In this document: piece after piece, positions 52,575-64,000 of the stretch
Layout of the letters: each line of letters starts with the position of its first letter
How positions within the stretch are numbered: position 1 is the first letter of the stretch
Origin: an uncultured Chloroflexia bacterium
GTDB lineage: Bacteria > Chloroflexota > Limnocylindria > QHBO01
Reading direction: 5' to 3'
DNA length: 64,000 nt
Assembly: GCA_963814375.1 (NCBI GenBank)
Contig: CAWFCQ010000008.1
Coordinates: 493,519-557,518, forward strand
Program-made: the position numbers and the translations under genes
The notes under the pieces: model-generated
What the model was told of the DNA's origin: nothing
The model's input: only the letters and a program-made list of their open reading frames with translations
Databases searched by the model: none

Positions 52575-54094
52575 CCGTCCTTCTCGTTGTCCTCGACGGG
52601 TTCGGCATCGGGGACGACCCCGAGCGCAACGCGCTCATGGCGGCATCGATGTGGAACTGGCATCGGCTGCTGGCGGAGTGGCCGAACGCGCAGCTCGCGG
52701 CCTCCGGCGAAGCCGTCGGCCTGCCCGCGGGCCAGATGGGCAACAGCGAGGTCGGGCACCTCAACCTCGGCGCCGGCTTCCGCGTGCTCCAGGACCTGCC
52801 GCGGATCAGCGCCGCGGTCCGGGACGGCTCGTTCTTCGACAACGCGGTTCTGCGGGCGGCCTGCGACCTCGCCCTCGTCCGTGGCGGTCGCCTCCACCTG
52901 ATGGGGCTCGTCGGCCCCGGAGGGATCCACGCTGTCGATGAGCACATCGAGGCGATGGTGGAGCTGGCGCATCGGTCGGGCGTGCCGCAAGACAGGGTTC
53001 TCTTCCACGCCTTCATCGATGGCCGGGACACCCCGCCGCGATCGGCGGAAGCCTTCCTTCCGGCGCTCGAGGCGCGGTTCGCCGGTCGGGCACGAGTGGC
53101 CACCGTGAGCGGGCGCTACTACGCGATGGACCGCGACCACCGCTGGGATCGGACGCATCTCGCCTACGCGGCGATCGTCAACGCCGACGGCCTCGTTGCG
53201 GCCACGCCGTCCGATGCGATCGCGGCTGCCTACGGCCGCGGCGAGTCGGACGAGTTCGTCCGGCCCACCGTCATCGGCGGCGTGGTCCCGATCCGCGCCG
53301 ATGACGCGGTCGTCCACCTGAACTTCCGGGCCGACCGGGCGCGGCAGCTGACGCAGGCGCTGGCGCTGCCCGACTTCATCGGCTTCGAGCGCCCCGCCTT
53401 TCCGGGGGCGCTCGACGTGACGACGCTGACCGAATACCAGGCGCCGGATGAGCTTCCGGTTCCGGTCGCCTTCCCGCCGCTCGTGATCGACTCGCTGGCG
53501 GCGCATCTCTCTCGCCTCGGCAAGCGCCAGCTGCACGTCGCGGAGACCGAGAAGTACGCGCACGTCACGTACTTCTTCAACGGCGGGTTGGAGGACCCGT
53601 TCCCCGGCGAGGAGCGAATCCTGGTCCCTTCGAACCGGGAGGTGGCGACCTACGACCTCGCCCCGGAGATGAGCGCCGGGCCGATCACCGACCGGCTCGT
53701 CGAGGCGCTGGATCGGCGGGAACAGGACTTCATCGTCGCCAACTACGCCAACCCTGACATGGTCGGCCACACCGGGGCCTGGTCGGCCGCGGTCCATGCC
53801 GCGGAGTTCATCGACGCCTGCCTCGGTCGCCTGACGCGCGCCGCTCTTGGCACGGGCAGCCCCATGGTCATCACCGCCGACCACGGCAACATCGAGGAGA
53901 TGCGAGACGCGCGGGGCGAGCCGCAGACGAAGCACACGACCTCGCCGGTGCCGATCGTGCTCGTGAGCGAGGCACACGACGGCGCAACGCTGCGCAACGG
54001 TCAGCTGGCCGATGTCGCGCCGACGATCTGCGAGCTGATGGGCGTCCCGGCCGGCCCGGCGATGGTGGGGGAGAGCCTCCTCGTGCGCCGGTGA
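52571..54094 (+). CDS. gpmI: 2,3-bisphosphoglycerate-independent phosphoglycerate mutase
   Basis: LDGFG, GQMGNSEVGH, DGRDT, GRYYAMDRD, AETEKYAHVT, DMVGHTG, TADHGN. Confidence 0.96.
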   Translation: MTVLLVVLDGFGIGDDPERNALMAASMWNWHRLLAEWPNAQLAASGEAVGLPAGQMGNSEVGHLNLGAGFRVLQDLPRISAAVRDGSFFDNAVLRAACDLALVRGGRLHLMGLVGPGGIHAVDEHIEAMVELAHRSGVPQDRVLFHAFIDGRDTPPRSAEAFLPALEARFAGRARVATVSGRYYAMDRDHRWDRTHLAYAAIVNADGLVAATPSDAIAAAYGRGESDEFVRPTVIGGVVPIRADDAVVHLNFRADRARQLTQALALPDFIGFERPAFPGALDVTTLTEYQAPDELPVPVAFPPLVIDSLAAHLSRLGKRQLHVAETEKYAHVTYFFNGGLEDPFPGEERILVPSNREVATYDLAPEMSAGPITDRLVEALDRREQDFIVANYANPDMVGHTGAWSAAVHAAEFIDACLGRLTRAALGTGSPMVITADHGNIEEMRDARGEPQTKHTTSPVPIVLVSEAHDGATLRNGQLADVAPTICELMGVPAGPAMVGESLLVRR

Positions 54095-54103
54095 GTCGCT
54101 CTC

Positions 54104-54119
54104 GTATATACGTATATAC
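54104..54119. promoter_or_regulatory. Palindrome (GTATATAC)x2 upstream of the secG promoter
   Basis: Perfect 16-bp AT-rich palindrome; extended -10 TGCTAAACT at 54141-54149. Confidence 0.5.
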
Positions 54120-54158
54120 CCGGCGACGCCACGAACCCTCTGCTAAACTTCGCCGGCC

Positions 54159-54383
54159 ATGACGACCGCCATTCTCATCGCCCAGATGATTCTCGCCGTC
54201 GCGCTCATCGCCTCGATCCTGCTGCAGCAGCGCGGGACCGGCCTCGGCGGAGCCTTCGGTGGTGAGGTGACGGCCTACCGCAGCCGGCGCGGGATCGAGC
54301 GAACGCTCTTCCGCCTCACGATCGTCCTGGCCATCCTCTTCGTCGCCTTCAGCCTGTTGAACCTGCTGCCGCCCACGACCTGA
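54159..54383 (+). CDS. secG: Preprotein translocase subunit SecG
   Basis: ILLQQRGTGLGGAFGG, RRG.E..L.RLT; two TM helices. Confidence 0.93.
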   Translation: MTTAILIAQMILAVALIASILLQQRGTGLGGAFGGEVTAYRSRRGIERTLFRLTIVLAILFVAFSLLNLLPPTT

Positions 54384-54403
54384 CCGCGGCCGGGCCTTCG
54401 CGC

Positions 54404-54874
54404 ATGAACAACCTGTTCGAAGAGGAAATTCGCGGTCACCACCGACTGCGGGACCACCTGCTGACCGTGGTGTCCGATGCGGATCTCGCCTACAAGCTTC
54501 CCGGCCACAACCCGACCCTGGGCGAGCTGCTGGTGGAGATGGGCGACATCGAGGGCATCTATACCCACTCCTTCGAGACGTTCACTCTCGACTGGTCGCA
54601 CCGCCGGCTGCCGCCTCCAGCGCCGCTCACGATTGCCAGCCTGCGAGCTTGGTTCGATGCGCAGGACGAGGCCATGAAGACCACGCTGGATCGCTTCACG
54701 CAAGAGGAGTTGCACGCTGACCGGGTCGACCGGGGCCACGGTTTCATTGCCTCGCCGTTTGTCCAGTACGAGGTCTACCGCGAGGCGGTGTACATCCTGT
54801 ACGGCAAGCTCAGCGTGTACCTGAAGGCACTGGAGCGCGACGCCGGCGAGGAATGGGCGGTCGGCGTAGGCTAG
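54404..54874 (+). CDS. DinB/DUF1572-like hypothetical protein
   Basis: SDADLAYKLPG.NPTLGELL helical pattern resembling the DinB superfamily. Confidence 0.6.
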   Translation: MNNLFEEEIRGHHRLRDHLLTVVSDADLAYKLPGHNPTLGELLVEMGDIEGIYTHSFETFTLDWSHRRLPPPAPLTIASLRAWFDAQDEAMKTTLDRFTQEELHADRVDRGHGFIASPFVQYEVYREAVYILYGKLSVYLKALERDAGEEWAVGVG

Positions 54875-54928
54875 AAGTTCGCCGAGTGTTTGGCGCGGCC
54901 ATCGGCGGCTGATAGAATCCGTGCTCGT

Positions 54929-55017
54929 GCCGAGGTGGCGGAATAGGCAGACGCGCTAGGTTCAGGACCTAGTGATCCTTACGGGTCGTGTGGGTTCAAG
55001 TCCCTCCCTCGGTACCA
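54929..55017 (+). tRNA. tRNA-Leu(CAG)
   Basis: Anticodon arm CTAGG-TT-CAG-GA-CCTAG, long variable arm, CCA; TAGAAT upstream. Confidence 0.95.
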
Positions 55018-55025
55018 CCCTCGAT

Positions 55026-55110
55026 GCCCAGGTGGCGGAATTGGTATACGCGTACGTTTGAGGGGCGTATGGGGAAACCCATCCGGGTTCAAGTCCCGGC
55101 CTGGGCACCA
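55026..55110 (+). tRNA. tRNA-Leu(GAG)
   Basis: Anticodon arm TACGT-TT-GAG-GG-GCGTA, long variable arm, CCA. Confidence 0.95.
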
Positions 55111-55132
55111 ATTCACTCTCGATCGACCGATG

Positions 55133-55162
55133 CGCCGCTCGCGCTCCTCCGCGAGCGGCGTT
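55133..55162 (+). terminator. Hairpin terminator after the tRNA-Leu pair
   Basis: 11-bp stem CGCCGCTCGCG/CGCGAGCGGCG, 6-nt loop, short T tail. Confidence 0.65.
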
Positions 55163-55402
55163 CGTCGTGGGTGGGGTACGGCGCGCGAACGGTCGGAATT
55201 CACACCAGTAACCGCTAGACGGATCGATCGCCTCCGAGACGTCGCAGATTCACGCCCCGCGTGCGTGAGAGGCGAATTGTGGCGATTCGGCGGCCACATC
55301 GAACACAAGGCACACCTGGTGTGAATCTGTGCTGTCCGTGCGACGGCACGAGCCTCCCTCACCCGGGTGGAGGCGGCTTGGCATCGGCTACCATGCCGCG
55401 GC

Positions 55403-55479
<77 letters not shown>

Positions 55480-55494
55480 TCGGCTCGGCAGCGG

Positions 55495-56343
55495 TCACAT
55501 GCGCTGGAGTGCCTCCTGGCGGCTTGCCTCGACCCGAGCTCCGGATTCGCGCCGCGCCATGCGTCGCAGCACCGCCGGCGCGACGAGGAGGCCGATGACG
55601 CTCCAGGCGCCGAGCACCAGAACCATCTCGAGGTGCCGCCACGACTGGCCGATCTCGATGGCGACCGCCGCCTCGGGCAGGAACACGTATCGCATGCCGA
55701 GGCCGATCCAGTAGGTCGGGAGCGCCTGGCCGAGCACCTGCACCCAGGGCGGCATCTCCTGGAGCGGGATGAGGATGCCGCTGATGATCGCCAGGCCGCC
55801 GATGAAGAAGAACCCGAGCGCACCAACCAGCCGCGGGCTGCGCACCAGCGAGCCGATGATCACCCCGACCGGCAGCGTCGCCAGCAGGCCCAGGACCACG
55901 ACGAGCACGAATACGAGCCAGTGGACCGCATCGGGCACCTCGAGGCCGGGGAAGAGGAAGAAGCCGGGAATCGTGATCAGCGCGATGGCGACGAACGTCT
56001 CGAGGCAGGCCTGTGAGAGGACGCCGGTGACGTAGCCCACGATCCCGTACGGCACGGCTTTCGCCCGCAGCACCGTGCCGTCCTCGCGCTCGGCAGCAAT
56101 GTAGTACGCCGGCCCGAGCGCCGAGGCCGCGATCATCAGACCGAGGAAACCGGGGAGCCCGACTGCCGCAAGGGACAGGTCGGTGCCCTCGATCGTCTCG
56201 TTGCGGTTCAGGACGAGGATCACCAGCGGGATCCCGGCCCAGACGACGGTATTGAAGATGCCGTCGGGGGTGGTCAGGATGTGCTTGAACATCATCCATC
56301 CACGGGCCAGCCCGATGCGCAGGGCGTAGCGCCTCGGGTTCAT
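55495..56343 (-). CDS. ABC-2 type transporter permease
   Basis: AEREDGT, SGILIP..EMP.WVQ, LPTYW. Confidence 0.9.
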   Translation of the reverse strand: MNPRRYALRIGLARGWMMFKHILTTPDGIFNTVVWAGIPLVILVLNRNETIEGTDLSLAAVGLPGFLGLMIAASALGPAYYIAAEREDGTVLRAKAVPYGIVGYVTGVLSQACLETFVAIALITIPGFFLFPGLEVPDAVHWLVFVLVVVLGLLATLPVGVIIGSLVRSPRLVGALGFFFIGGLAIISGILIPLQEMPPWVQVLGQALPTYWIGLGMRYVFLPEAAVAIEIGQSWRHLEMVLVLGAWSVIGLLVAPAVLRRMARRESGARVEASRQEALQRM

Positions 56344-57242
56344 GCGGCTTCACCGGAATCGGTCGCAGCCAGCGTCTCGTCGCGGCGGACCATTGCGAGG
56401 TAGGTGTCCTCGAGAGTCGCCCGCCTGACTTCCAGGTCCTCGACCGGTGGGCCGACGCGATTGAGGAGGTCGCGGACGAACGCGGTGGCATCGGCCGCCG
56501 ACTCGGTATGGCGGGTGCCAGCCTGGCTCCAGCGGACCTCGGCCGTCGTCGAGATGCGGCCGGCGAGCTCGTCGGCAGTGCCGTCGGCGACGATTCTTCC
56601 CTTGGCCAGGATGACGATCCGATCCGCCAGCTTCTCCGCCTCGTCGAGGTCGTGGGTGGTGAGGAACACGGTCGTCTCCTCGTCGTCCGACAGGCCGCGC
56701 ACCAGGTTATGGAAGTCGCGGCGCGCCTCCGGGTCGAAGCCTGCCGTCGGCTCGTCGAGGAAGAGGAGCTCCGGCCGGCCGATGAGCCCGATCGCGACGT
56801 CGAGCCGCCTGCGCTGCCCCCCGGAGAGGGTCGCGATGCGCTGGCCGGCCTGCTCCGGCAGCCCGACCACTTCGATCAACTCGTCGACGTCGCGTGGGCG
56901 TGCGCGTGCGGCCGTCGCATACGGGCGGTAGTACTCGCCGAGGTGATGGAGCAGCTGGCGCACCCGCCACTTGCCGTGGTCCCGCCACGACTGGAGCACG
57001 ATCCCAACCTGCGCGCGCCACGCCTCGTCCGCCGTCGCGGGGTCGGAACCGAGGACCTCGACCTCACCATCGGATCTGCCGCGGAAGCCCTCGAGGATCT
57101 CGATGATCGTGGTCTTGCCGGCCCCGTTCGGGCCGAGCAGCGTTACGATCTCGCCGCGCTCGACGGTGAAGCTGACGCCGTGCAAGACGTCCTTGGTGCC
57201 GTATCGCATGCGCAGGTCGCGCACCGCGACCGCCGAGTCCAT
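56340..57242 (-). CDS. ABC transporter ATP-binding protein
   Basis: GPNGAGKTT, LSGGQRRR, LFLDEPT, TTHDLDEA. Confidence 0.94.
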   Translation of the reverse strand: MDSAVAVRDLRMRYGTKDVLHGVSFTVERGEIVTLLGPNGAGKTTIIEILEGFRGRSDGEVEVLGSDPATADEAWRAQVGIVLQSWRDHGKWRVRQLLHHLGEYYRPYATAARARPRDVDELIEVVGLPEQAGQRIATLSGGQRRRLDVAIGLIGRPELLFLDEPTAGFDPEARRDFHNLVRGLSDDEETTVFLTTHDLDEAEKLADRIVILAKGRIVADGTADELAGRISTTAEVRWSQAGTRHTESAADATAFVRDLLNRVGPPVEDLEVRRATLEDTYLAMVRRDETLAATDSGEAA

Positions 57243-57314
57243 GGCCGCAGCCTAGCGCAGACCGGCGTGGGGTAGCATGCTCGGCGTCAACTCCCGCGTT
57301 CGAGGAGCTCCCGA

Positions 57315-57893
57315 ATGCCACTCTGGGGATGGATCGTCCTGATCGCGGTCGCGGTCATCGTCCTCTTCCTGATCTTCACCTACAACGGCCTGGTTCGGCT
57401 GCGGAACATGGTCGACGAGGCATGGAACCAGATCAGCGTCCAGCTGAAGCGCCGCCACGATCTGATTCCGAACCTCGTCAACGCCGTGAAGGGCTACATG
57501 GACTTCGAGCAGGAGACGCTCACGCGCGTCATCGAGGCTCGATCCGCGGCGGTGAGCGCCCAGCAGGGCGGCCCGGCGAACGCAGGCCAGGCGGCGCAGG
57601 CCGAGAACTTCCTGACTGGCGCCCTTCGGCAGCTGTTCGCCCTGGTCGAGAACTACCCGGACCTCAAGGCGAATGAGAACGTCATGCAGCTCCAGGAGGA
57701 GCTGACGACGACCGAGAACCAGATCGGATTCAGCCGCCAGCACTACAACGGCACCGTCCGCGAGTTCAACACGTCGGTCCAGACCTTCCCGAACGTCCTC
57801 ATCGCCGGTCTCTTCGGCTTCCGCGAGCGCGACTACTTCCAGATCGCCGAGTCGGACGCCGCGGTGCCCGAGGTGAACCTGCGGACCACTTGA
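57315..57893 (+). CDS. lemA: LemA family protein
   Basis: YNGLV, QLKRRHDLIPNLV, ENYPDLKAN, TENQI..SRQ.YN, FP. Confidence 0.95.
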   Translation: MPLWGWIVLIAVAVIVLFLIFTYNGLVRLRNMVDEAWNQISVQLKRRHDLIPNLVNAVKGYMDFEQETLTRVIEARSAAVSAQQGGPANAGQAAQAENFLTGALRQLFALVENYPDLKANENVMQLQEELTTTENQIGFSRQHYNGTVREFNTSVQTFPNVLIAGLFGFRERDYFQIAESDAAVPEVNLRTT

Positions 57894-57903
57894 CCTCAGG
57901 CCG

Positions 57904-58887
57904 ATGAGCGCCGAGGCGCGCCCGACGCCGACCACCTTCTATCGCGAGATCGATCGCAACCGGCGCCGGAGCTGGCTGCTGGTGGCGATCGTCGTCGTCG
58001 TGCTCGGCCTGCTCGGCGGAGCCATCGGCTACGCCAGCGGGCTCGGCTGGGGCGGCGTCGTCATGGCGCTCATCGTCGCCACCGCGATGAGCATCGGCTC
58101 GTACTTCGCCGGCGATGCGCTCGTGATGGCGACCAGCGGCGCGCGCGAGATCGACCTCGCCCAGCCGCCCGACCAGTTCCGGCAGGTGCTCAACGTGGTG
58201 GAGGAGATGCGCCTTGCCGGCGGCCTGCCGCGCCCGCGGGTCTGGATCATCGACGACACGGCACCGAACGCCTTCGCCACCGGCCGCGATCCGGAGCACG
58301 CCAGCGTGGCGGTCACGACCGGCCTGATCCAGAAGCTCGACCGCGAGCAGCTCCAGGGCGTCATCGGCCACGAGATGAGCCACATCGGCAACCTCGACAT
58401 CCGCTTCACGCTGCTGGTGGGTGTCCTGGTCGGGGCGATCGCGCTGTTGGCCGATTGGTTCCTGCGCTTCACGTACTGGGGCGGCGGGCGGCGCAGCAGC
58501 TCCGACTCGGACCGAGGCGGCGGGGGAGCGATGGCCCTCATCTTCGCGCTCGCGCTTGTCCTCTCGGTGGTCGCGCCGCTCATCGGGCGGCTCGTGCAGG
58601 CCGCCGTCAGCCGCAGCCGCGAGTCCCTGGCCGATGTCACCGCGGTCGAAATGACGCGCAACCCCGTCGGGCTGGCGCGCGCGCTGCGCACGATCAGTGA
58701 CGACGCCGAGGTGCTCGAGGTCGCCAACCGCGCCACCCAGCACCTCTACATCGTCAACCCGATCAAGTCGTTCGAGGAGCGCGCCAAGTCGCTGTGGGAC
58801 ACCCACCCGCCCATCGGCGAGCGGATCCGCGCGCTCGAGGCGATAGCCGGCCGGATGGGTGGGGTGGCTTCGTCCGGCACGGGCTGA
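57904..58887 (+). CDS. htpX: M48 zinc metalloprotease HtpX
   Basis: PNAFATG, HEMSH, SRSRE..AD, THPPI..RI; lemA-htpX pairing. Confidence 0.92.
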   Translation: MSAEARPTPTTFYREIDRNRRRSWLLVAIVVVVLGLLGGAIGYASGLGWGGVVMALIVATAMSIGSYFAGDALVMATSGAREIDLAQPPDQFRQVLNVVEEMRLAGGLPRPRVWIIDDTAPNAFATGRDPEHASVAVTTGLIQKLDREQLQGVIGHEMSHIGNLDIRFTLLVGVLVGAIALLADWFLRFTYWGGGRRSSSDSDRGGGGAMALIFALALVLSVVAPLIGRLVQAAVSRSRESLADVTAVEMTRNPVGLARALRTISDDAEVLEVANRATQHLYIVNPIKSFEERAKSLWDTHPPIGERIRALEAIAGRMGGVASSGTG

Positions 58888-58904
58888 CGAGGCACACAGC
58901 CGAC

Positions 58905-59381
58905 GTGGAGATCCTCGGGTCCGCCGAGGTCGAGGCGGAGCGCCTTCAGGCCTTCCTCACCGAGCAATGGCATGCCGAGGTTGTGGTCGCCCATGACGAG
59001 CCGATGCGCCCCGTCGAGCTGCCAGGCTTCGTGGCGGTCGACGACGGACGGATCGTTGGCCACGTCGCCTATCGGATCGCGGGGGACGCGTGCGAGCTCG
59101 TCGCCATCGCGGTCGACCCCCCGTGGCGGGGTATTGGATCGGCGCTGCTCCAGCGCGTCGTCGAGGCGGCTCGCTCCGCCGGCTGTGGGTTGGTCTGGCT
59201 GACGACGACGAACGACAACCTCGATGCGCTGCGCTTCTACCAGCGCCGCGGCTTTCGGTTGTCTCGGGTCAGGCCGGGTGCGGTCGACGAGGCGCGACGG
59301 GTCCTGAAGCCCGAGATCCCGTCGGTCGGCTCATATGGGATTCCGATGCGCGACGAGATCGACCTCGTTCTCGACCTCTGA
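58905..59381 (+). CDS. GNAT family N-acetyltransferase (start uncertain)
   Basis: RGIGSALL acetyl-CoA motif, TTNDNLDALRFYQRRGF. Confidence 0.88.
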   Translation: MEILGSAEVEAERLQAFLTEQWHAEVVVAHDEPMRPVELPGFVAVDDGRIVGHVAYRIAGDACELVAIAVDPPWRGIGSALLQRVVEAARSAGCGLVWLTTTNDNLDALRFYQRRGFRLSRVRPGAVDEARRVLKPEIPSVGSYGIPMRDEIDLVLDL

Positions 59382-59448
59382 ACCGCGTCCGTGTTGCGAC
59401 CCCTGTGCCGCCTCGGTATCCTTGCGACCGCCCCGAAGTGAGACGCGA

Positions 59449-59524
59449 GCCGAGGTAGCTCAGTCGGTAGAGCACCGCCCTGAAGAGGCGGGTGTCGTCA
59501 GTTCGATTCTGACCCTCGGCACCA
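59449..59524 (+). tRNA. tRNA-Phe(GAA)
   Basis: Anticodon arm CCGCC-CT-GAA-GA-GGCGG; 76 nt with CCA. Confidence 0.96.
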
Positions 59525-59555
59525 TCAACGCGGTATCATCGGGCACGATAAGCGG

Positions 59556-59631
59556 GCGGAAGTGGCTCAGTTGGTAGAGCATCACCTTGCCAAGGTGAGG
59601 GTCGCGGGTTCGAGTCCCGTCTTCCGCTCCA
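59556..59631 (+). tRNA. tRNA-Gly(GCC)
   Basis: Anticodon arm TCACC-TT-GCC-AA-GGTGA; ends TCCA. Confidence 0.97.
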
Positions 59632-59688
59632 TTTTCATGTCCTGCTGGGACGCGTGGAAGGCCGACCTGCTAGCGTGAGACGAGGCGA

Positions 59689-59762
59689 TGCCCCGTCGTC
59701 TAGTGGTAGGACAGCGGACTTTGGATCCGTTAACCGAGGTTCGAATCCTCGCGGGGCAGCCA
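59689..59762 (+). tRNA. tRNA-Gln(TTG)
   Basis: Anticodon arm GCGGA-CT-TTG-GA-TCCGT; U1-A72 pair; ends GCCA. Confidence 0.96.
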
Positions 59763-59777
59763 GTCAGGACGACCGGT

Positions 59778-59852
59778 GGCGACGTGCCCGAGTGGTTCAG
59801 GGAGCGGTCTGCAAAACCGCGTACACGGGTTCGATTCCCGTCGTCGCCTCCA
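59778..59852 (+). tRNA. tRNA-Cys(GCA)
   Basis: Anticodon arm GCGGT-CT-GCA-AA-ACCGC; U73 and CCA. Confidence 0.96.
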
Positions 59853-60213
59853 CCAACCTGAACGTGATAGAGGGCCGGGTTGCGCATGCACGCAAGGCCG
59901 GTCCTCCGCTTCCCGTGTCCTCAGAGGGCACTGCGATTTGGGCTAAGAGTGAATGTTCAGCGTGTCCAGGGCCTCATCCAGATAGAGCACCGGCACATGC
60001 ACGGCGCGAATCCCGAGCGCGACGGAGGACCCTGCGGTGAAGCGAATGCTGCTGGCCGGACACCAGCGAGAACCAGGCCGGCTTGTACTCGTGGGATGGA
60101 GACCACTGCGCATCGGCCCGGCCTAAATGGCCCCATCCTGATCGGACCCGACGGCTCGGAGTGGGAGCTCATCTCGCCCGAGTCAGGACCCTCTCCGAGA
60201 CCGTGCGCCTAGA

Positions 60214-60242
60214 GGCGACGTGCCTTCCAGTCGTCGCCTCCA
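60214..60242 (+). repeat. Internally deleted tRNA-Cys copy (minihelix or att-like repeat)
   Basis: GGCGACGTGCC equals tRNA-Cys nt 1-11, joined to TTCCAGTCGTCGCCTCCA, which matches the last 18 nt with one mismatch. Confidence 0.8.
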
Positions 60243-60260
60243 CGCATTCTGACCTCCAAA

Positions 60261-60298
60261 GGGGGGCCCGATCCGGCCATTTGCGGTCGGGCCCCTCC
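60261..60298. terminator. GC hairpin between the tRNA-Cys fragment and the convergent gene
   Basis: GGGGGGCCCGATC...GGTCGGGCCCCTCC inverted repeat. Confidence 0.55.
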
Positions 60299-60312
60299 GA
60301 GGTTCCCTGTCT

Positions 60313-61407
60313 CTACGGATTGACGTAGATGACGCTGCGCCCGTCGTCCAGCGTCCCGGCAACGAACCCGATGCTGGCTGCGCCGGCCGGTGCGGCCGTC
60401 AGCGCGCCCGCCCCAGTCGTGGTGAGCTCAGTGCCGGCGGCAAGGCCCGTCATCGCCGCGTTCGCCTCGACCGCCAACAGGCCGTCGGTCACGATCAGCA
60501 GAGTGCCTCCCGCCGTTGCACCGGCTTCCCCTCGAACCATGCGCTGCGAGCCGGTGCGTGGATTCGCGACGAGTGAGATTGACCGATCCGCAAGGCCGAT
60601 GACCTGGTCGCCGGCCGTTGCGCGGCGGACGATCAGCATGGGAGCACCGGTCGGGCCGGTTGTGACGCCGGCGATGGCTACCGCGTCACCTTGGGCCACG
60701 GCCTCGCTGGTCTCGACGGCCAGCACGGTTGTGCAACCGGTGCACGAGCCGACCTGGATGTCGCCGTCAACCACGACGTCGCCAAAGAAGTCGCCCGCGA
60801 GGCCCCCATCGGAGAAGTCCGATGCTGTGACAGCCACACCAGCCGGGCTGTTGTTGATTCCCCACACGCCGAAGTTGACCCCGGTGTCCTCCTCGACCGT
60901 GCCCACGACGCCGTTCCCACCGCTCGCGCGGGACTCACCGTAGACGCCGTTGGCGGAGCCCACGGAGGCATCGGTCGCGAGGTTGACGCCACGCACGGCA
61001 TCGGCCTCGTCTGCGCTCGTGGTTCCTGAAACCCCATCGTTGTTGCGCCCGTCGCCGAGGACGGCAGCGCCGCCGCCGAAGGAGCTGGCGTTCTGGGTGC
61101 CTACTACCGCGTACTTGTCTGCGGTCCCTGTGAAGCCCGCCATGCCAGTCGAGGTGGTGCTCTGAAAGAGGCCGCCGATTCCGCTGTTCGCCAACCCTCG
61201 GACCGCCCAACCGGCTCCCGTGTTCTGCGCGAAGAGCGTCTGCCCGCCATTGGACGACGTGACGACCGTCGACGAGGTGCCGGCCGTGTTATTGCGCCCG
61301 AGAAGCAGTGCGGATCCGGCGGCGCCGGCAACCACACCGGATACAAGCAGCGCCAGGGCGACCGCAAGGATCGTGGCGAAGCGGGCATTGCTGAGGAAGC
61401 GATTCAT
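60313..61407 (-). CDS. Secreted Gly/Ala-rich repeat protein (probable beta-solenoid)
   Basis: GGAGGAGG RBS, signal peptide MNRFLSNARFATILAVALALL, repeated (G/A)VxG units, CTGC, then a small C-terminal beta domain. Confidence 0.8.
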   Translation of the reverse strand: MNRFLSNARFATILAVALALLVSGVVAGAAGSALLLGRNNTAGTSSTVVTSSNGGQTLFAQNTGAGWAVRGLANSGIGGLFQSTTSTGMAGFTGTADKYAVVGTQNASSFGGGAAVLGDGRNNDGVSGTTSADEADAVRGVNLATDASVGSANGVYGESRASGGNGVVGTVEEDTGVNFGVWGINNSPAGVAVTASDFSDGGLAGDFFGDVVVDGDIQVGSCTGCTTVLAVETSEAVAQGDAVAIAGVTTGPTGAPMLIVRRATAGDQVIGLADRSISLVANPRTGSQRMVRGEAGATAGGTLLIVTDGLLAVEANAAMTGLAAGTELTTTGAGALTAAPAGAASIGFVAGTLDDGRSVIYVNP

Positions 61408-61636
61408 GGGTGGTCCTCCTCCACGTGCGTTTCCCGCACAAATGCGTTGCCCGTGCGGGCGATCGGGCTGCGCGTGGGCCACGTTAAGGCGTCGCGTGTG
61501 AGCACAGCTGACGACGCTGGGGCTCGGACCGCGTCGCGCGAAACTGCGACCCTCCGCTCGGGTACGTTACGCCCTGGGCGGACCAGTCGGACTTCCTGAG
61601 CGTGGGGCGACCGGGCTCCTCACTTCGGCGGCTGAT

Positions 61637-61927
61637 TTAGCGATCGGACTCCCACGTCCACGGCAGGCGGCGGCGATACGCCTCCGTGACGAGGCGCGCG
61701 ATCTCGGGACCTATCTCCGCCCGGACCTCGTTCTGCAGCTCGTCCCAGGCGAACAGGGCTGGGTGGTCATGGGGGAGGTGATCGAGAGCAGGGACCGGCG
61801 CGACAAAGACCGCATCGGCGAGGCCATAGCCGAACAGCTCCTCGTCAGGGTCAACGTCAGGCACGTGTTCGACGACCACTCGACTCGCGCCGGCGGTCAC
61901 CTTGCACTGGAACTCGGCATGCGCCAT
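61637..61927 (-). CDS. Hypothetical protein
   Basis: About 96-aa ORF with plausible composition; no recognised family. Confidence 0.5.
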   Translation of the reverse strand: MAHAEFQCKVTAGASRVVVEHVPDVDPDEELFGYGLADAVFVAPVPALDHLPHDHPALFAWDELQNEVRAEIGPEIARLVTEAYRRRLPWTWESDR

Positions 61928-62175
61928 CGAGCGTGCACACATCTGACGTCACCAGCTAGCTTGCGCGATTCACGTGGTGCGCGCATTGGCAAGATCAGGA
62001 CCAGATCCGCGCGATCACGTATTGCGGATGGTGACGTACACTGGCGCACGCTCACGGGGCGACTGCAAGACTGCCTGACGGGCTCGACTCCCCGGCGTCG
62101 CCCCCAGCATCTGAGCGTGAATGGCCGATCCGGGCGTACCGAGCGGTTCGGCACTTGCCTGCGGAGGGGTTCGGA

Positions 62176-62607
62176 ATGGCGCGTCTGGCAGCGATCGGCA
62201 TGGACGAGATGATCGTGCAGTGGATCCTGGCGCACATGGCGACCGTCGGCGCCGGCGAGGACCTTGCCGCCTACACGCCCTCGGCGGATGAGGGCAATCC
62301 GACGGTGTTCGTAGCCACCGACATCGGCCTCGTGCACGTCTCCGGTGAGCGACGCGGTCCGCGGGCGATGTTCAGCTTCCTCCGCTTCTCGGTCACCCCG
62401 TGGAGCGAGGTGGAGGGATTCGTCTTCCGGGCGGACGGCATGGCGCAGTTCCCCCAGGAGGCCGAGTGGCATCTGACCATCGAGAAGCCAGGACCCCTTG
62501 CCGGGAAGGCGCGCGCCGTCGACGGCGTGACCGACTGGCAGCTGATCGAGTTCGGGGGCACCTGCACCTACCTCATCGCGAAGGTGCGCGACGGGCAGCA
62601 GATCTAG
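62176..62607 (+). CDS. Hypothetical protein
   Basis: GGAGG RBS before the ATG at 62176; GC-rich third positions. Confidence 0.6.
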   Translation: MARLAAIGMDEMIVQWILAHMATVGAGEDLAAYTPSADEGNPTVFVATDIGLVHVSGERRGPRAMFSFLRFSVTPWSEVEGFVFRADGMAQFPQEAEWHLTIEKPGPLAGKARAVDGVTDWQLIEFGGTCTYLIAKVRDGQQI

Positions 62608-62620
62608 ACTGAAACCGATG

Positions 62621-62704
62621 GCCGGAGTGGCGGAACGGCAGACGCAGCCGGCTTAAACCCGGCGGCCGCAAGGCGTGGGGGTTCGAATCCCTCCTCCGGC
62701 ACCA
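62621..62704 (+). tRNA. tRNA-Leu(TAA)
   Basis: Anticodon arm GCCGG-CT-TAA-AC-CCGGC, variable arm GCC-GCAA-GGC, CCA. Confidence 0.96.
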
Positions 62705-62706
62705 AC

Positions 62707-63939
62707 TCATCCGCTACGGCGACGGCCGAAGAGCGACCTGCGCTCCTTCTTGGCTGCCGGCGCCGGCTGCTCGAAGCCGATGACGGCCTGCGCGACCCGC
62801 CGCAACGCCGCTGCGGCCGGGACCATCGGCCGGCCGATGACGAGCGGCACGCCCTCGTTGACCGACCGGATCATCTCGACCTCGGTGTACGGGATCTCGG
62901 CGGCCGGCTTGGCACGGAGCAGGTTCTCGACGTCCCGCGTTTTGAGCAGCTCCTTGGGGAAGATGTGGTTTACGACGAGGTGGGTTCGCGCCTTGAGCGG
63001 CGTCGTGTCGGCCAGAAAAGTCATGAGCAGGCTCATGGAGCGCAGCGCTGCGATCTCTGGGAAGAGAACGAAGACGTGAGCATCGGACTGCTCGATCAGC
63101 CACAGCGTCCGCGGGTCCAGCCGGCTGCCCAGGTCGACCAGGATGTGGTCGAACGAGGGCTGCATCAGCTCGACAATGCGCTGAAGGTGCTCGAGCGTGA
63201 CGCGGAAGTCCGCCTCCGGCCGGGATGGCGCCGCGAGGACGACCAGCCCAGACGAATGGGTGGTGAGGTAGGTGCGTGCCAGCTCCGGATCCGCCAGCGA
63301 CTGATCGTCGCTGGCTAGGCCGGCGAGGTCATACCGGGGCGTCAGGTTGAGATGGGTCGCGACCTGGCCGAACTGGAGGTCGAAGTCGATCAGGAGGACC
63401 CGGGACGCCGGGAGGGCGCCGTCGCCAGCCGCGGCGCCCCCGGTCGGCCCACCGCCGCCTGCCAGGAGCACCGCCGTGTTGACGGCCAGCGTCGTCGTCC
63501 CCACCCCGCCCTTTGGGCTGAAGAAGGCGACGAGCTCACCAACGCCGACGCCGGCGGTGCTCTCAGGATGGACCTTTCCGGCGCGGATGAGGAGCGCCAT
63601 CACGCGGCCGTCGAGCTCGTTGTGCGCGAAGCCGGTGGCGATCACGTCGTCCGCACCGGCCTCCAGGAACGCGATCCGCGCCTCGACGTCGTTGGCCGGA
63701 GCGACGACGAGGATCGGCGTCACGTGGCTGTCACCCGCCGTGCGGAGGGATGCGATCGCTCCGGAGGCGGCCAGGCCTTCCGCCACAATCAGGTCCACCG
63801 GGGCGCCGCGCATGGCCGCGACGGCGTCCGCCGGCGTCGTGACCGATATCGTTCGGTAGCCGGCATCGGCCAGCGTCGTCTCGAGCTCGGTCCGGAGCTC
63901 GGGCGCGCGGGCGCAGATCAGGATCGGATTGGAGGCCAT
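62707..63939 (-). CDS. cpaE: CpaE/TadZ-like pilus assembly protein (degenerate REC plus MinD/ParA ATPase)
   Basis: N-terminal REC-like domain (EAGADD), deviant Walker A SPKGGVGTTT, DFDLQFG, SVNEGVP. Confidence 0.82.
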   Translation of the reverse strand: MASNPILICARAPELRTELETTLADAGYRTISVTTPADAVAAMRGAPVDLIVAEGLAASGAIASLRTAGDSHVTPILVVAPANDVEARIAFLEAGADDVIATGFAHNELDGRVMALLIRAGKVHPESTAGVGVGELVAFFSPKGGVGTTTLAVNTAVLLAGGGGPTGGAAAGDGALPASRVLLIDFDLQFGQVATHLNLTPRYDLAGLASDDQSLADPELARTYLTTHSSGLVVLAAPSRPEADFRVTLEHLQRIVELMQPSFDHILVDLGSRLDPRTLWLIEQSDAHVFVLFPEIAALRSMSLLMTFLADTTPLKARTHLVVNHIFPKELLKTRDVENLLRAKPAAEIPYTEVEMIRSVNEGVPLVIGRPMVPAAAALRRVAQAVIGFEQPAPAAKKERRSLFGRRRSG

Positions 63940-64000
63940 GGCGTCCCGCGAGCGGGTGGAGATGATGGCGAGTATACGAGCCGCCCTGCCCGACGTTGGC

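What the first reader, a model, noticed from the sequence alone, without database searches (positions are those of the whole stretch)
60214..60242. tRNA-Cys minihelix retaining the acceptor stem, U73 and CCA
Seen: about 360 bp after tRNA-Cys is GGCGACG-TGCCTTCCAGT-CGTCGCC-T-CCA, made of tRNA nt 1-11 joined to the last 18 nt with 46 nt removed. It forms a perfect 7-bp acceptor stem, begins 1 nt after the TAG of a small ORF, and is followed by a hairpin placed like the one after the real tRNA. Known: integration normally duplicates only the 3' part of a tRNA, and U73 is a main CysRS identity element that supports charging of minihelices in vitro. Inference: more than a plain att scar; possibly a tRNA-mimic 3' tag processed by tRNA nucleases, a Cys-chargeable small RNA, or the signature of an unusual integration mechanism.
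Basis: partly seen in the sequence, partly recalled or inferred. Interest (0 to 1): 0.72.

Follow-up and report, generated by a model that had tools for sequence, protein, structure and literature searches.

The report
Internally deleted tRNA-Cys relic copy
The 29-base "minihelix" is real and does derive from both ends of the neighbouring tRNA-Cys gene, but it occurs in this one assembly only, amid gene debris in a mobile-island insertion hot spot, so it is most likely a dead remnant of a second tRNA-Cys copy.

Summary
The sequence is as described. Window 60214-60242 equals tRNA-Cys nt 1-11 (exact) plus nt 58-75 (17 of 18; the mismatch at 60229 was not noted). It lies 361 nt after tRNA-Cys and 1 nt after a TAG, and a hairpin follows it. 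Chance is excluded: the 11-mer occurs 14 times in 5.0 M genome positions, and none of 41 loose-pattern hits in 185,579 species genomes has a tRNA nearby. Nothing supports a function. The element is absent from a second 93-96% identical haplotype in the same MAG. It was not found in 62 congeners, the species-representative genomes, JGI metagenome contigs or IMG/VR. No tRNA model calls it, and in context U73 and C74 are predicted to be paired. The surroundings are debris: two out-of-frame gene fragments, an accessory gene, and an older displaced tRNA-Cys fragment at 62063-62106. Congeners carry ordinary 3'-only tRNA-Cys repeats here. Homology runs past CCA into the tRNA-Cys flank and terminator, so this is a DNA-level copy. 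Best reading (about 0.68): a redundant tRNA-Cys copy made during island turnover that lost nt 12-57. Reads could not confirm the junction. Interest is low.

The parts
59778..59852 (+). Intact tRNA-Cys(GCA), last gene of the Phe-Gly-Gln-Cys cluster (59449-59852). It is the source sequence and the island integration target.
   Evidence: ARAGORN; Rfam tRNA 62 bits; 100% or near-identical in 50 full-length genus hits.
59860..59912 (+). Hairpin after the real tRNA-Cys, preceded by the flank motif shared with relatives (CTGA.CGTGA...GGCC).
   Evidence: Fold (-26.5 kcal/mol, z = -2.2); flank comparison.
60053..60100 (+). 16-codon fragment of an unrelated secreted or membrane protein, in a different frame from the next fragment.
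   Evidence: tblastn: 81% over 16 aa to a 218-aa ORF of G048 (an unpublished genome).
60114..60212 (+). C-terminal 31-33 codons and natural TAG stop of a lipoprotein-family gene. The first ~200 codons are missing, so it is a pseudogene end. The 110-aa ORF 59880-60212 is an open frame over debris.
   Evidence: tblastn: 61% over 31 aa to residues 200-230 of the 231-aa stop-to-stop frame of the G075 lipoprotein (219 aa from its ATG). Cys-x-stop ends all 7 metagenome homologues that include the C-terminus. No Pfam hit.
60214..60224 (+). 5' piece of the element, identical to tRNA-Cys nt 1-11 (acceptor 5' strand, nt 8-9, first two D-stem bases).
   Evidence: frequency control.
60225..60242 (+). 3' piece of the element: tRNA-Cys nt 58-75 (end of T loop, T-stem 3' strand, acceptor 3' strand, U73, CCA), with one mismatch at 60229.
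   Evidence: homology continues downstream.
60243..60304 (+). tRNA-Cys-type 3' flank and terminator-like hairpin, homologous to what follows tRNA-Cys or its displaced fragments in congeners. It also lies just past the stop of the convergent 389-aa gene.
   Evidence: 72-77% over 53-75 nt to L007 and L010; 88% over 34 nt to the flank of the G010 3'-only fragment. Fold.
60313..61482 (-). 389-aa Gly/Ala/Thr-rich protein with an N-terminal hydrophobic segment; accessory island cargo.
   Evidence: ORF; no Pfam hit; found in 1 of 62 congeners at 37% identity.
62063..62106 (+). Older, degenerate displaced fragment of tRNA-Cys (nt 32-75; 35 of 45 aligned columns identical), followed by the same flank motif. 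It marks the distal end of the inserted zone.
   Evidence: Its upstream arm is shared with haplotype C4 and with G068. The apparent 5' extension is not significant.
62621..62704 (+). tRNA-Leu(TAA). In two congeners it lies within 15-25 nt of tRNA-Cys or of its old fragment, which frames the inserted interval.
   Evidence: G006, unpublished; G068.

Best explanation
The element is a non-functional relic: a second copy of the tRNA-Cys gene that has lost its middle. SHOWN: tRNA-Cys in this genus is a hot spot where integrative islands enter and decay. The stretch between tRNA-Cys and the old displaced fragment at 62063-62106 is accessory DNA and pseudogene debris. The element's 3' piece continues into the tRNA-Cys-type flank and terminator. 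Its 5' piece is tRNA-derived beyond chance. INFERRED: a full-length redundant tRNA-Cys copy once stood at 60214, directly behind a lipoprotein gene. It could have arrived with incoming DNA that carried the 5' half of a tRNA-Cys gene. One possible source is an island that excised imprecisely from another host and took the left junction and upstream gene along, as lambda transducing phages do (recalled). Another is an attP that spans the whole tRNA gene. Integration at the resident tRNA-Cys then placed this copy in front of the previous flank. Being redundant, the copy lost nt 12-57 in a 46-bp deletion without microhomology and took one substitution. The island body shrank to 361 bp of fragments. 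The 7-bp stem, U73 and CCA survive only because both ends of the gene survived.
For: (1) Both pieces are tRNA-derived, in gene order and orientation. Chance is excluded (14 of about 5.04 M positions; 0 of 41 loose-pattern hits lie near a tRNA). (2) Homology runs past the CCA into the flank and hairpin, so this is a DNA copy of gene plus flank, not a copy of mature tRNA. (3) The same flank variant follows an ordinary, longer 3'-only fragment (nt 45-75) in G010. This suggests the 3' piece here was once longer. (4) The locus is a hot spot. 11 partial 3' repeats (starting at nt 28-45) occur in 10 congeners plus haplotype C4, at about 0.45 to 12 kb from the tRNA where both lie on one contig. Tandem repeats occur at the neighbouring tRNA-Gln in G011. 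Tandem islands that share an att site, and damaged fragments, are documented (PMC2440964 and PMC4383910, passages read). (5) The surroundings are debris: two gene fragments in different frames, no Pfam domains and no integrase-sized ORF. The 389-aa gene occurs in 1 of 62 congeners. (6) There is no conservation. The element is absent from haplotype C4. Only G000's own hit among the 19 pattern hits in 63 genus genomes has this form. The exact 29-mer with one N gave 0 hits in genome contigs and 0 in metagenome contigs. The loose pattern gave 0 hits in IMG/VR. (7) ARAGORN and Rfam do not call it. No sigma-70-like promoter is found in 59300-62750. (8) In G001 both the tRNA and its displaced fragment are followed by a similar flank. 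These islands therefore carry host-locus sequence beyond the tRNA end, which fits past capture of flanking DNA.
Against: No genome searched shows the postulated intermediate, a full-length second tRNA-Cys bounding an island. The only genomes with two full-length copies (G000, G001) look like mixed haplotypes. None of 15 metagenome loci, nor G075 or G047, has a tRNA next to the lipoprotein gene. The boundaries are oddly tidy for random decay. The 5' piece starts exactly at tRNA +1, one base after a natural stop codon. The 3' piece starts at nt 58, close to where two other short 3' repeats in this genome begin (tRNA-Glu 58-77, tRNA-Lys 56-73). Islander groups this region as T-loop/junction crossover sites. 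The deletion has no microhomology to explain it. The assembly junction is unverified. Transcription was not tested.
Confidence: 0.68

Rival explanations
1. The element is the attachment-site junction of a small island whose own attP had this mini-tRNA form. An 18-nt identity block (nt 58-75, T-loop/junction class) was preceded in the element's arm by a copy of the acceptor 5' strand. Integration at nt 57/58 of the resident tRNA gives exactly the order seen: tRNA, 361 bp, nt 1-11 fused to nt 58-75, then the previous flank.
For: The order tRNA(1-75) - Z - (1-11)(58-75) - old flank equals insertion of a circle (58-75, Z, 1-11) at nt 57/58 (worked out). Two other short 3' repeats in this genome start at nt 56-58. 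Islander counts 1836 islands with T-stem-region sites (PMC4383910, passages read). The 5' piece starts 1 nt after a natural stop codon, as an element arm might.
Against: Z is 361 bp of gene fragments with no integrase. The same flank variant follows a longer fragment (nt 45-75) in G010. Every clear tRNA-Cys repeat in the genus is of the anticodon-loop class. No such attP was found in IMG/VR, genome or metagenome contigs. This reading still needs a tRNA-derived, internally deleted ancestor, so it moves the deletion into the element rather than removing it.
Confidence: 0.15
2. The element is an assembly artefact. The MAG mixes two haplotypes of this locus, and the true sequence holds either a full second tRNA-Cys or no such element.
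For: Contig C4 repeats window 41121-64000 at 93-96% identity, and contig C8 ends at the window's end. Contamination is 4.5%. No public run or contig spans the junction.
Against: A clean 46-nt internal loss with unique sequence on both sides is not the usual product of a haplotype collapse. The flanks are unique in the genome. The extra mismatch at 60229 points to a diverged copy rather than a mis-join of identical repeats.
Confidence: 0.07
3. The element is a functional tRNA-like RNA. It is transcribed, trimmed by tRNA nucleases and perhaps charged by CysRS through U73, or it acts as a 3' tag or decoy.
For: It has a perfect 7-bp acceptor stem, U73 and an encoded CCA. U73 suffices for Cys identity in minihelices (PMC9976931, section 10 read).
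Against: There is no conservation at any level, and the ORF it would tag is a dead fragment. There is no sigma-70-like promoter, and a hairpin lies between it and the tRNA operon. U73 and C74 are predicted paired in context. The stem is 7 bp with an irregular 13-nt loop; as recalled, the charged minihelices have a 12-bp acceptor-T helix with a T loop. Rfam reports nothing.
Confidence: 0.03
4. Chance: an ordinary 18-nt att remnant that happens to be preceded by a complementary GC-rich run.
For: GGCGACG is common in this 69.7% GC genome (3604 sites). Similar stem-plus-tail patterns occur in coding DNA (19 hits in 63 genus genomes; 41).
Against: The match extends 4 nt beyond the stem into tRNA nt 8-11 (P = 14/3604 given the 7-mer). 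The full 11-mer has a frequency of 2.8e-6 per position. None of the 41 chance-type hits lies near a tRNA.
Confidence: 0.01

Closest known systems
Displaced tRNA-gene fragments at the ends of integrated genomic islands (Islander principle, PMC4383910; partial tRNA genes, PMC9897764 section 12)
   Same: It lies downstream of the cognate tRNA in the same orientation. The 3' piece ends at the CCA and is followed by att-type flank. The locus is a proven island hot spot in the genus.
   Different: Such fragments hold one end of the gene only. This one also has the first 11 nt. A 5' fragment downstream of the tDNA is a configuration that Islander's filter rejects. There is no integrase, and the interval is 361 bp against Islander's 2-kb minimum.
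Tandem island arrays that share an internal att site (for example AICESav3728/3708 with a 44-bp att between them; PMC2440964, passages read)
   Same: There are several tRNA-Cys-derived sites in a row (59778, 60214, 62063). Each is followed by a similar flank, with unrelated cargo between them.
   Different: The internal site here is not the plain 44-48-nt block seen in congeners. It is a composite with an internal loss, and the 'islands' are remnants without integration genes.
tRNA pseudogenes made by internal deletion
   Same: Both gene ends are kept in order, the middle is missing, there is one extra substitution, and no tRNA finder calls it.
   Different: The deletion happens to keep the whole acceptor stem, the discriminator and the CCA, which gives a minihelix look. 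The parent copy has not been observed.
Synthetic minihelix-Cys substrates of CysRS (work cited as ref. 33 in PMC9976931; the original paper was not read)
   Same: It has the acceptor stem of tRNA-Cys with U73 and CCA.
   Different: As recalled, those substrates are 12-bp acceptor-T-stem helices closed by the T loop and are made in vitro. This is a 7-bp stem with an 11-13-nt mixed loop in genomic DNA, with no evidence of transcription.
Hybrid att sites of specialised transducing phages (lambda gal/bio type; recalled textbook knowledge, no call)
   Same: It offers a route by which an element can carry the host-side arm, here the tRNA 5' half and the upstream gene, into a new site.
   Different: This is only an inferred history here. 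No element, integrase or donor arrangement was found.

Membership tests
Functional tRNA gene | Cloverleaf with anticodon arm, recognised by tRNA models | tested here: not met
   ARAGORN lists 9 tRNAs and none at 60214. Rfam at E<=1 has no hit on the element. nt 12-57 are absent.
Displaced tDNA fragment of an integrated island (Islander definition) | Terminal fragment of the cognate tDNA, same orientation, on the correct side | tested here: met
   nt 58-75 lie downstream on the + strand, 17 of 18 identical, with the att-type flank continuing.
Displaced tDNA fragment of an integrated island (Islander definition) | Only one end of the gene is present | tested here: not met
   tRNA nt 1-11 directly precede the 3' piece. 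All 11 other genus fragments are 3'-only.
Displaced tDNA fragment of an integrated island (Islander definition) | Tyrosine integrase gene between tDNA and fragment, interval of 2-200 kb | tested here: not met
   The interval is 361 bp with no Pfam domain in its ORFs. The wider interval to 62063 also has none among the ORFs tested.
Aminoacylatable RNA minihelix | Acceptor stem with the cognate discriminator (U73 for Cys) and a 3' CCA | tested here: met
   7 perfect pairs, then T, then CCA. The identity rule comes from PMC9976931 section 10.
Aminoacylatable RNA minihelix | Continuous 12-bp acceptor-T helix closed by the T loop, with a single-stranded NCCA end (definition recalled) | tested here: not met
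   The T-stem 5' strand and most of the T loop are deleted. In the 106-nt context U73 and C74 are paired with A60213 and G60212.
Aminoacylatable RNA minihelix | Exists as a discrete RNA and is charged | not testable with these tools
   No run holds the stretch. This needs small-RNA sequencing and an enzyme assay.
Known tRNA-like RNA families (viral TLS, mascRNA and others) | Match to a curated covariance model | tested here: not met
   Rfam scan of 54000-64000 at E<=1: the only hits of these families overlap true tRNAs.
tRNA pseudogene by internal deletion | Collinear homology to both ends of a resident tRNA gene and its 3' flank, with the middle missing | tested here: met
tRNA pseudogene by internal deletion | Full-length parent copy at the orthologous place in a relative | tested here: not met
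   Not found in haplotype C4, in 62 congeners, or in the lipoprotein-gene loci. Absence in incomplete MAGs is weak evidence.

The most novel reading that the evidence does not exclude
The fusion is not decay but design: a genome- or element-encoded acceptor-stem minihelix with U73 and CCA. It could be made as a small RNA and seen by CysRS, the CCA-adding enzyme or tRNA nucleases as a decoy, tag or primer. Or it could be the attP core of an island family whose attachment site is a fossil of a complete tRNA gene with both acceptor strands retained.
Probability: 0.04. Interest if true: 0.75.

Novelty: new member of a known kind. Interest (0 to 1): 0.17.

Why it matters
As it stands, this is a curiosity of genome decay. 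It shows that a tRNA integration hot spot can hold composite tRNA remnants as well as the usual 3' fragments, and that such remnants can mimic a minihelix. That matters mainly for annotation, because island finders and tRNA finders assume end fragments only. It also hints that islands here sometimes carry the host-side half of the tRNA gene along. If the element were expressed and charged, it would be the first natural minihelix-type substrate of a tRNA synthetase. The lack of any conservation makes that unlikely.

Tried and rejected
Read support. The look-up of sequencing runs listed 24 runs, none holding more than 0.17 of the sampled words. Read laying on X1, X2, X3 and X13 put contigs on the tRNA-Gln part and on the 389-aa gene only. 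One 34-nt piece (60230-60263, 3 differences) ran on into unlike sequence. Nothing spans 60214-60242, so the junction is neither confirmed nor refuted, and nothing can be said about expression.

A 'third full-length copy' idea. The old fragment at 62063-62106 seemed to extend to tRNA nt 1. The 5' part scores no better than shuffles (896 of 2000 shuffles for C8 and 400 of 2000 for C4 reach the score). The upstream arm is a conserved element arm shared with G068. Rejected.

Segmental duplication of the tRNA cluster. The 361 bp and the 70 nt before the element show no significant similarity to the region upstream of tRNA-Cys. Score 20 against a shuffle mean of 20.05. A shared 9-mer is reached in 36 of 500 shuffles. 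Rejected.

Donor search. The variant 18-mer (with the A) occurs in 1 of 400 other class genomes (G034), with no tRNA in the 18 kb around it. Read as chance.

Lipoprotein homologues. 15 metagenome loci and G075 have no tRNA next to the gene.

Weak 24-44-nt matches of 59989-60040 to many congeners. One was looked at; it lies in the hydrophobic N-terminus of a large membrane protein. Not interpreted.

Other tRNAs. No 5'+3' fusion was found for the other 8 tRNAs of the window in 94 fetched loci plus the window. Those loci include ones fetched with the Cys pattern itself. In G000, of 13 distinct places holding a 15-nt-or-longer 3'-end piece of any of its 61 tRNAs, only this one has the 5' 7-mer within 45 nt upstream.

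Small islets at tRNA-Glu and tRNA-Lys of G000 and in C4. Pfam found hydrolase, Na/H exchanger, SDR, ADH and DnaJ domains and no integrase. Uninformative.

Literature. A search for 'minihelix' + 'genomic island' + 'tRNA gene' found 0 papers. A search for attP / acceptor stem / entire tRNA gene / integrase listed 7 papers, and none of the 7 listed holds the phrase 'entire tRNA gene' (0 occurrences each in the listing). The SLP1 whole-tRNA att site is recalled; the passages read in PMC2440964 did not confirm it. The supplementary tables of PMC9897764 may list comparable fragments.

Short 5'-only BLAST hits of 15-30 nt (E 0.001-0.5) were not examined.

Claims resting on unpublished genomes. G006: the short tRNA-Cys to tRNA-Leu spacing. 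G047: one 32-75 repeat and one lipoprotein C-terminal fragment. G048: one 28-75 repeat and the 16-aa motif match. None is essential to the verdict.

Full report
OBSERVATION. ARAGORN finds a tRNA cluster Phe-Gly-Gln-Cys at 59449-59852, with tRNA-Cys(GCA) at 59778-59852 and the CCA encoded (Rfam 62 bits). Its first 11 nt equal tRNA nt 1-11. Its last 18 nt equal tRNA nt 58-75 at 17 of 18, with A for C at 60229. So 46 nt (12-57) are missing. The element starts 361 nt after the tRNA and 1 nt after the TAG (60210-60212) of ORF 59880-60212. It folds into a perfect 7-bp stem (-13.6 kcal/mol, z = -4.7). In its 106-nt context the stem grows to 9 bp, because G60212 and A60213 pair with C74 and U73. Hairpins follow both the real tRNA (59860-59912) and the element (60251-60304) at nearly the same distance, 18 and 19 nt to the inner stem.

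IS IT MORE THAN CHANCE? Yes. The genome is 69.7% GC, and GGCGACG occurs 3604 times, but only 14 of those sites continue with TGCC. The 11-mer's frequency is 2.8e-6 per position. A loose pattern (the 11-mer, 0-30 nt, then the last 11 nt) scanned over one genome from each of 185,579 species gave 41 hits. All look like GC-rich coding DNA, and none has a tRNA in its locus of up to 8 kb. In G000, 13 distinct places hold a 15-nt-or-longer 3'-end piece of one of its 61 tRNAs. Only this one has the matching 5' 7-mer within 45 nt upstream. The 5' piece is therefore derived from a tRNA-Cys gene.

IS IT CONSERVED? No, at any level that could be searched. The MAG (8 contigs, 89% complete, 4.5% contamination) holds a second version of this region. 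Contig C4 452088-428897 is collinear with window 41121-64000 at 93-96% identity. C4 has the same tRNA cluster (96-97%) and a different insert of about 1.9 kb. It then has the same old tRNA-Cys fragment and the same distal flank, but no minihelix. In 63 genomes of the genus (G000 plus 62 congeners), the pattern stem / 3-40 nt / stem-TCCA hits 19 times in 16 genomes. Only G000's own hit has the tRNA-like continuation. The exact 29-mer with N at the mismatch gives 0 hits in the species-representative genomes and 0 in JGI metagenome contigs. The loose pattern gives 0 in IMG/VR.

THE SURROUNDINGS. tRNA-Cys is an island hot spot in this genus. A BLAST of the 75-nt gene over the 63 genomes finds 50 full-length copies. 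It also finds 11 partial copies, and all of them are 3' pieces: nt 28-75 (two), 31-75 (two), 32-75 (four), 34-75, 40-75 (C4) and 45-75. Where both lie on one contig they sit about 0.45 to 12 kb downstream of the intact gene. These are the ordinary displaced fragments of anticodon-loop-class integration. The neighbouring tRNA-Gln shows two such fragments in tandem in G011. In the window, an old degenerate fragment lies at 62063-62106, with 35 of 45 aligned columns identical to nt 32-75. Its upstream arm is shared with C4 and with G068, so it predates the split of these lineages. In G068 and in G006 (unpublished), tRNA-Leu(TAA) follows within 15-25 nt. Most of 59853-62062 is therefore inserted DNA.

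Its content fits that reading. The 389-aa Gly/Ala/Thr-rich gene (60313-61482, minus strand) has no Pfam domain and occurs in 1 of 62 congeners at 37% identity. The 361 bp in front of the element hold two unrelated gene fragments in different frames. Window 60114-60212 encodes the last 31-33 residues and the natural stop of a lipoprotein family. It is 61% identical to residues 200-230 of the 231-aa stop-to-stop frame of a G075 protein, which is 219 aa from its ATG. All 7 metagenome homologues that reach the C-terminus end in Cys, one residue, then stop. Window 60053-60100 encodes a 16-residue motif of another protein (G048, unpublished). No sigma-70-like promoter or canonical terminator is found in 59300-62750.

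WHAT THE ELEMENT IS. From 60225 on, homology does not stop at the CCA. It continues for 35-55 nt into the flank motif and hairpin that follow tRNA-Cys or its fragments in congeners: 72-77% over 53-75 nt to L007 and L010, and 88% over 34 nt to the flank of the G010 fragment. The element is therefore a DNA-level copy of gene end plus flank, not a copy of a mature tRNA. The G010 comparator carries the same flank variant behind a plain, longer 3' fragment (nt 45-75) with no 5' arm. This suggests that the window's 3' piece was once longer. Upstream, homology to the tRNA begins exactly at nt 1. The 70 nt before it do not resemble the Gln-Cys spacer.

The simplest history is that a full-length, redundant tRNA-Cys copy stood here, behind the lipoprotein gene and in front of what was then the tRNA's flank, and later lost nt 12-57. 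How a full copy arose is inference. One route is an island that had excised imprecisely elsewhere and carried the left junction (upstream gene plus tRNA 5' half), as specialised transducing phages do (recalled). Another is an attP that spans the whole gene (SLP1 is recalled as such; not confirmed in the passages read). Integration at the resident tRNA-Cys would give the observed order in either case. There is indirect support in G001. There, both the tRNA and its displaced fragment are followed by a similar flank, so these islands do carry host-locus sequence beyond the tRNA.

WHAT SPEAKS AGAINST THIS. The intermediate was not found. No relative has two full-length copies bounding an island, and no lipoprotein homologue sits next to a tRNA. 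The boundaries are tidy: tRNA +1 lies one base after a natural stop, and nt 58 is close to where two other short repeats in this genome start (tRNA-Glu 58-77, tRNA-Lys 56-73). Islander places one of its two crossover classes in that region (PMC4383910, passages read). This keeps alive a rival in which an element's own attP had the 11+18 form. The observed order is exactly what insertion of a circle (58-75, Z, 1-11) at nt 57/58 would give. But Z has no integration genes. No such attP was found anywhere. This rival also still needs an internally deleted tRNA ancestor.

FUNCTIONAL READINGS. U73 is indeed sufficient for Cys identity in minihelices (PMC9976931, section 10). The element, however, lacks the T-stem 5' strand and most of the T loop. 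It has a 7-bp stem with an irregular loop. Its U73 and C74 are predicted paired in context. It is seen by no RNA model. It follows a dead gene and is unique to one haplotype of one MAG. Transcription could not be tested: the runs found hold at most 0.17 of the sampled words, and nothing covers the element. I put a functional RNA at about 3%.

COMPARISON WITH THE KNOWN. The element works like, and mostly is, a tRNA-gene remnant of island turnover. It meets the side, orientation and flank criteria of a displaced fragment. It fails the criteria 'one end only', 'integrase present' and 'at least 2 kb' (PMC4383910). Tandem islands that share an internal att site are known (PMC2440964), and partial tRNA genes from integration are common (PMC9897764, section 12). 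Internally deleted tRNA pseudogenes are an ordinary kind. The only unusual point is that this deletion spared the whole acceptor stem, the discriminator and the CCA. Two literature searches turned up no report of such composite fragments at islands: 0 papers for the first, and 7 listed for the second, judged only from the listing. That is weak evidence of absence.

VERDICT. Best explanation: a relic of a redundant tRNA-Cys copy with a 46-bp internal deletion in an island-accretion zone (0.68). Rivals: element attP of mini-tRNA form (0.15), assembly artefact (0.07), functional minihelix RNA (0.03), chance (0.01). Interest 0.17. Claims that rest on the unpublished genomes G006, G047 and G048 are marked above, and none is essential.

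Noticed in passing
window 41121-64000 versus G000 contig C4 452088-428897: The MAG holds two collinear versions of this 23-kb region at 93-96% identity, and contig C8 ends where the window ends. These are probably two strains or species binned together, so counts of 'two tRNA-Cys genes' in this genome are not true paralogy.
   Followed up: partly
window 55479-55482 (just after tRNA-Val 55403-55479): Relative to the window, haplotype C4 carries about 1.2 kb of extra DNA right after tRNA-Val (C4 437766 to 436569). This may be another tRNA-adjacent insertion.
   Followed up: no
window 58859-59393: About 530 bp covering most of the GNAT acetyltransferase gene (58794-59381; Pfam PF00583, E 6e-20) has no counterpart in haplotype C4.
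   Followed up: no
window 60313-61482 (-): A 389-aa Gly/Ala/Thr-rich protein with an N-terminal hydrophobic segment. It has no Pfam family and occurs in 1 of 62 congeners at 37% identity. Contigs 95-99% alike for parts of the gene occur in four metagenome runs (three DNA runs labelled soil, outdoor and a coded organism; one rhizosphere RNA run).
   Followed up: partly
window 62063-62106; G000 C4 about 430857-430822; G068 C9 about 57473-57515: There is an old, degenerate displaced tRNA-Cys fragment with a conserved upstream arm, shared by both haplotypes and by another species. It is an ancient attR that has outlived its island.
   Followed up: partly
G000 C8:92568-92587 and C7:323716-323733 (outside the window): There are exact 20-nt and 18-nt copies of the 3' ends of tRNA-Glu (nt 58-77) and tRNA-Lys (nt 56-73), 2.6 and 4.4 kb downstream of those genes. 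The intervals hold hydrolase, Na/H exchanger, SDR and ADH genes and no integrase. They may be T-loop-class att remnants.
   Followed up: partly
G011 C134:52603-68311: The neighbouring tRNA-Gln carries two successive 3' fragments of about 50 nt, 13.4 and 1.8 kb apart. This is a tandem island array at the next tRNA of the same cluster.
   Followed up: no
G034 C9:192340-192357: An 18-mer identical to the element's 3' piece, including the A variant, lies in a genome of another family with no tRNA within 18 kb. Read as chance but not excluded as an att relic.
   Followed up: partly
window 62155-62607 (+): A 150-aa ORF without a Pfam family lies between the old fragment and tRNA-Leu(TAA). It is conserved at about 96% in haplotype C4. 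Its place is occupied by only 15-25 nt in G068 and G006, so it may be a still older insertion.
   Followed up: no
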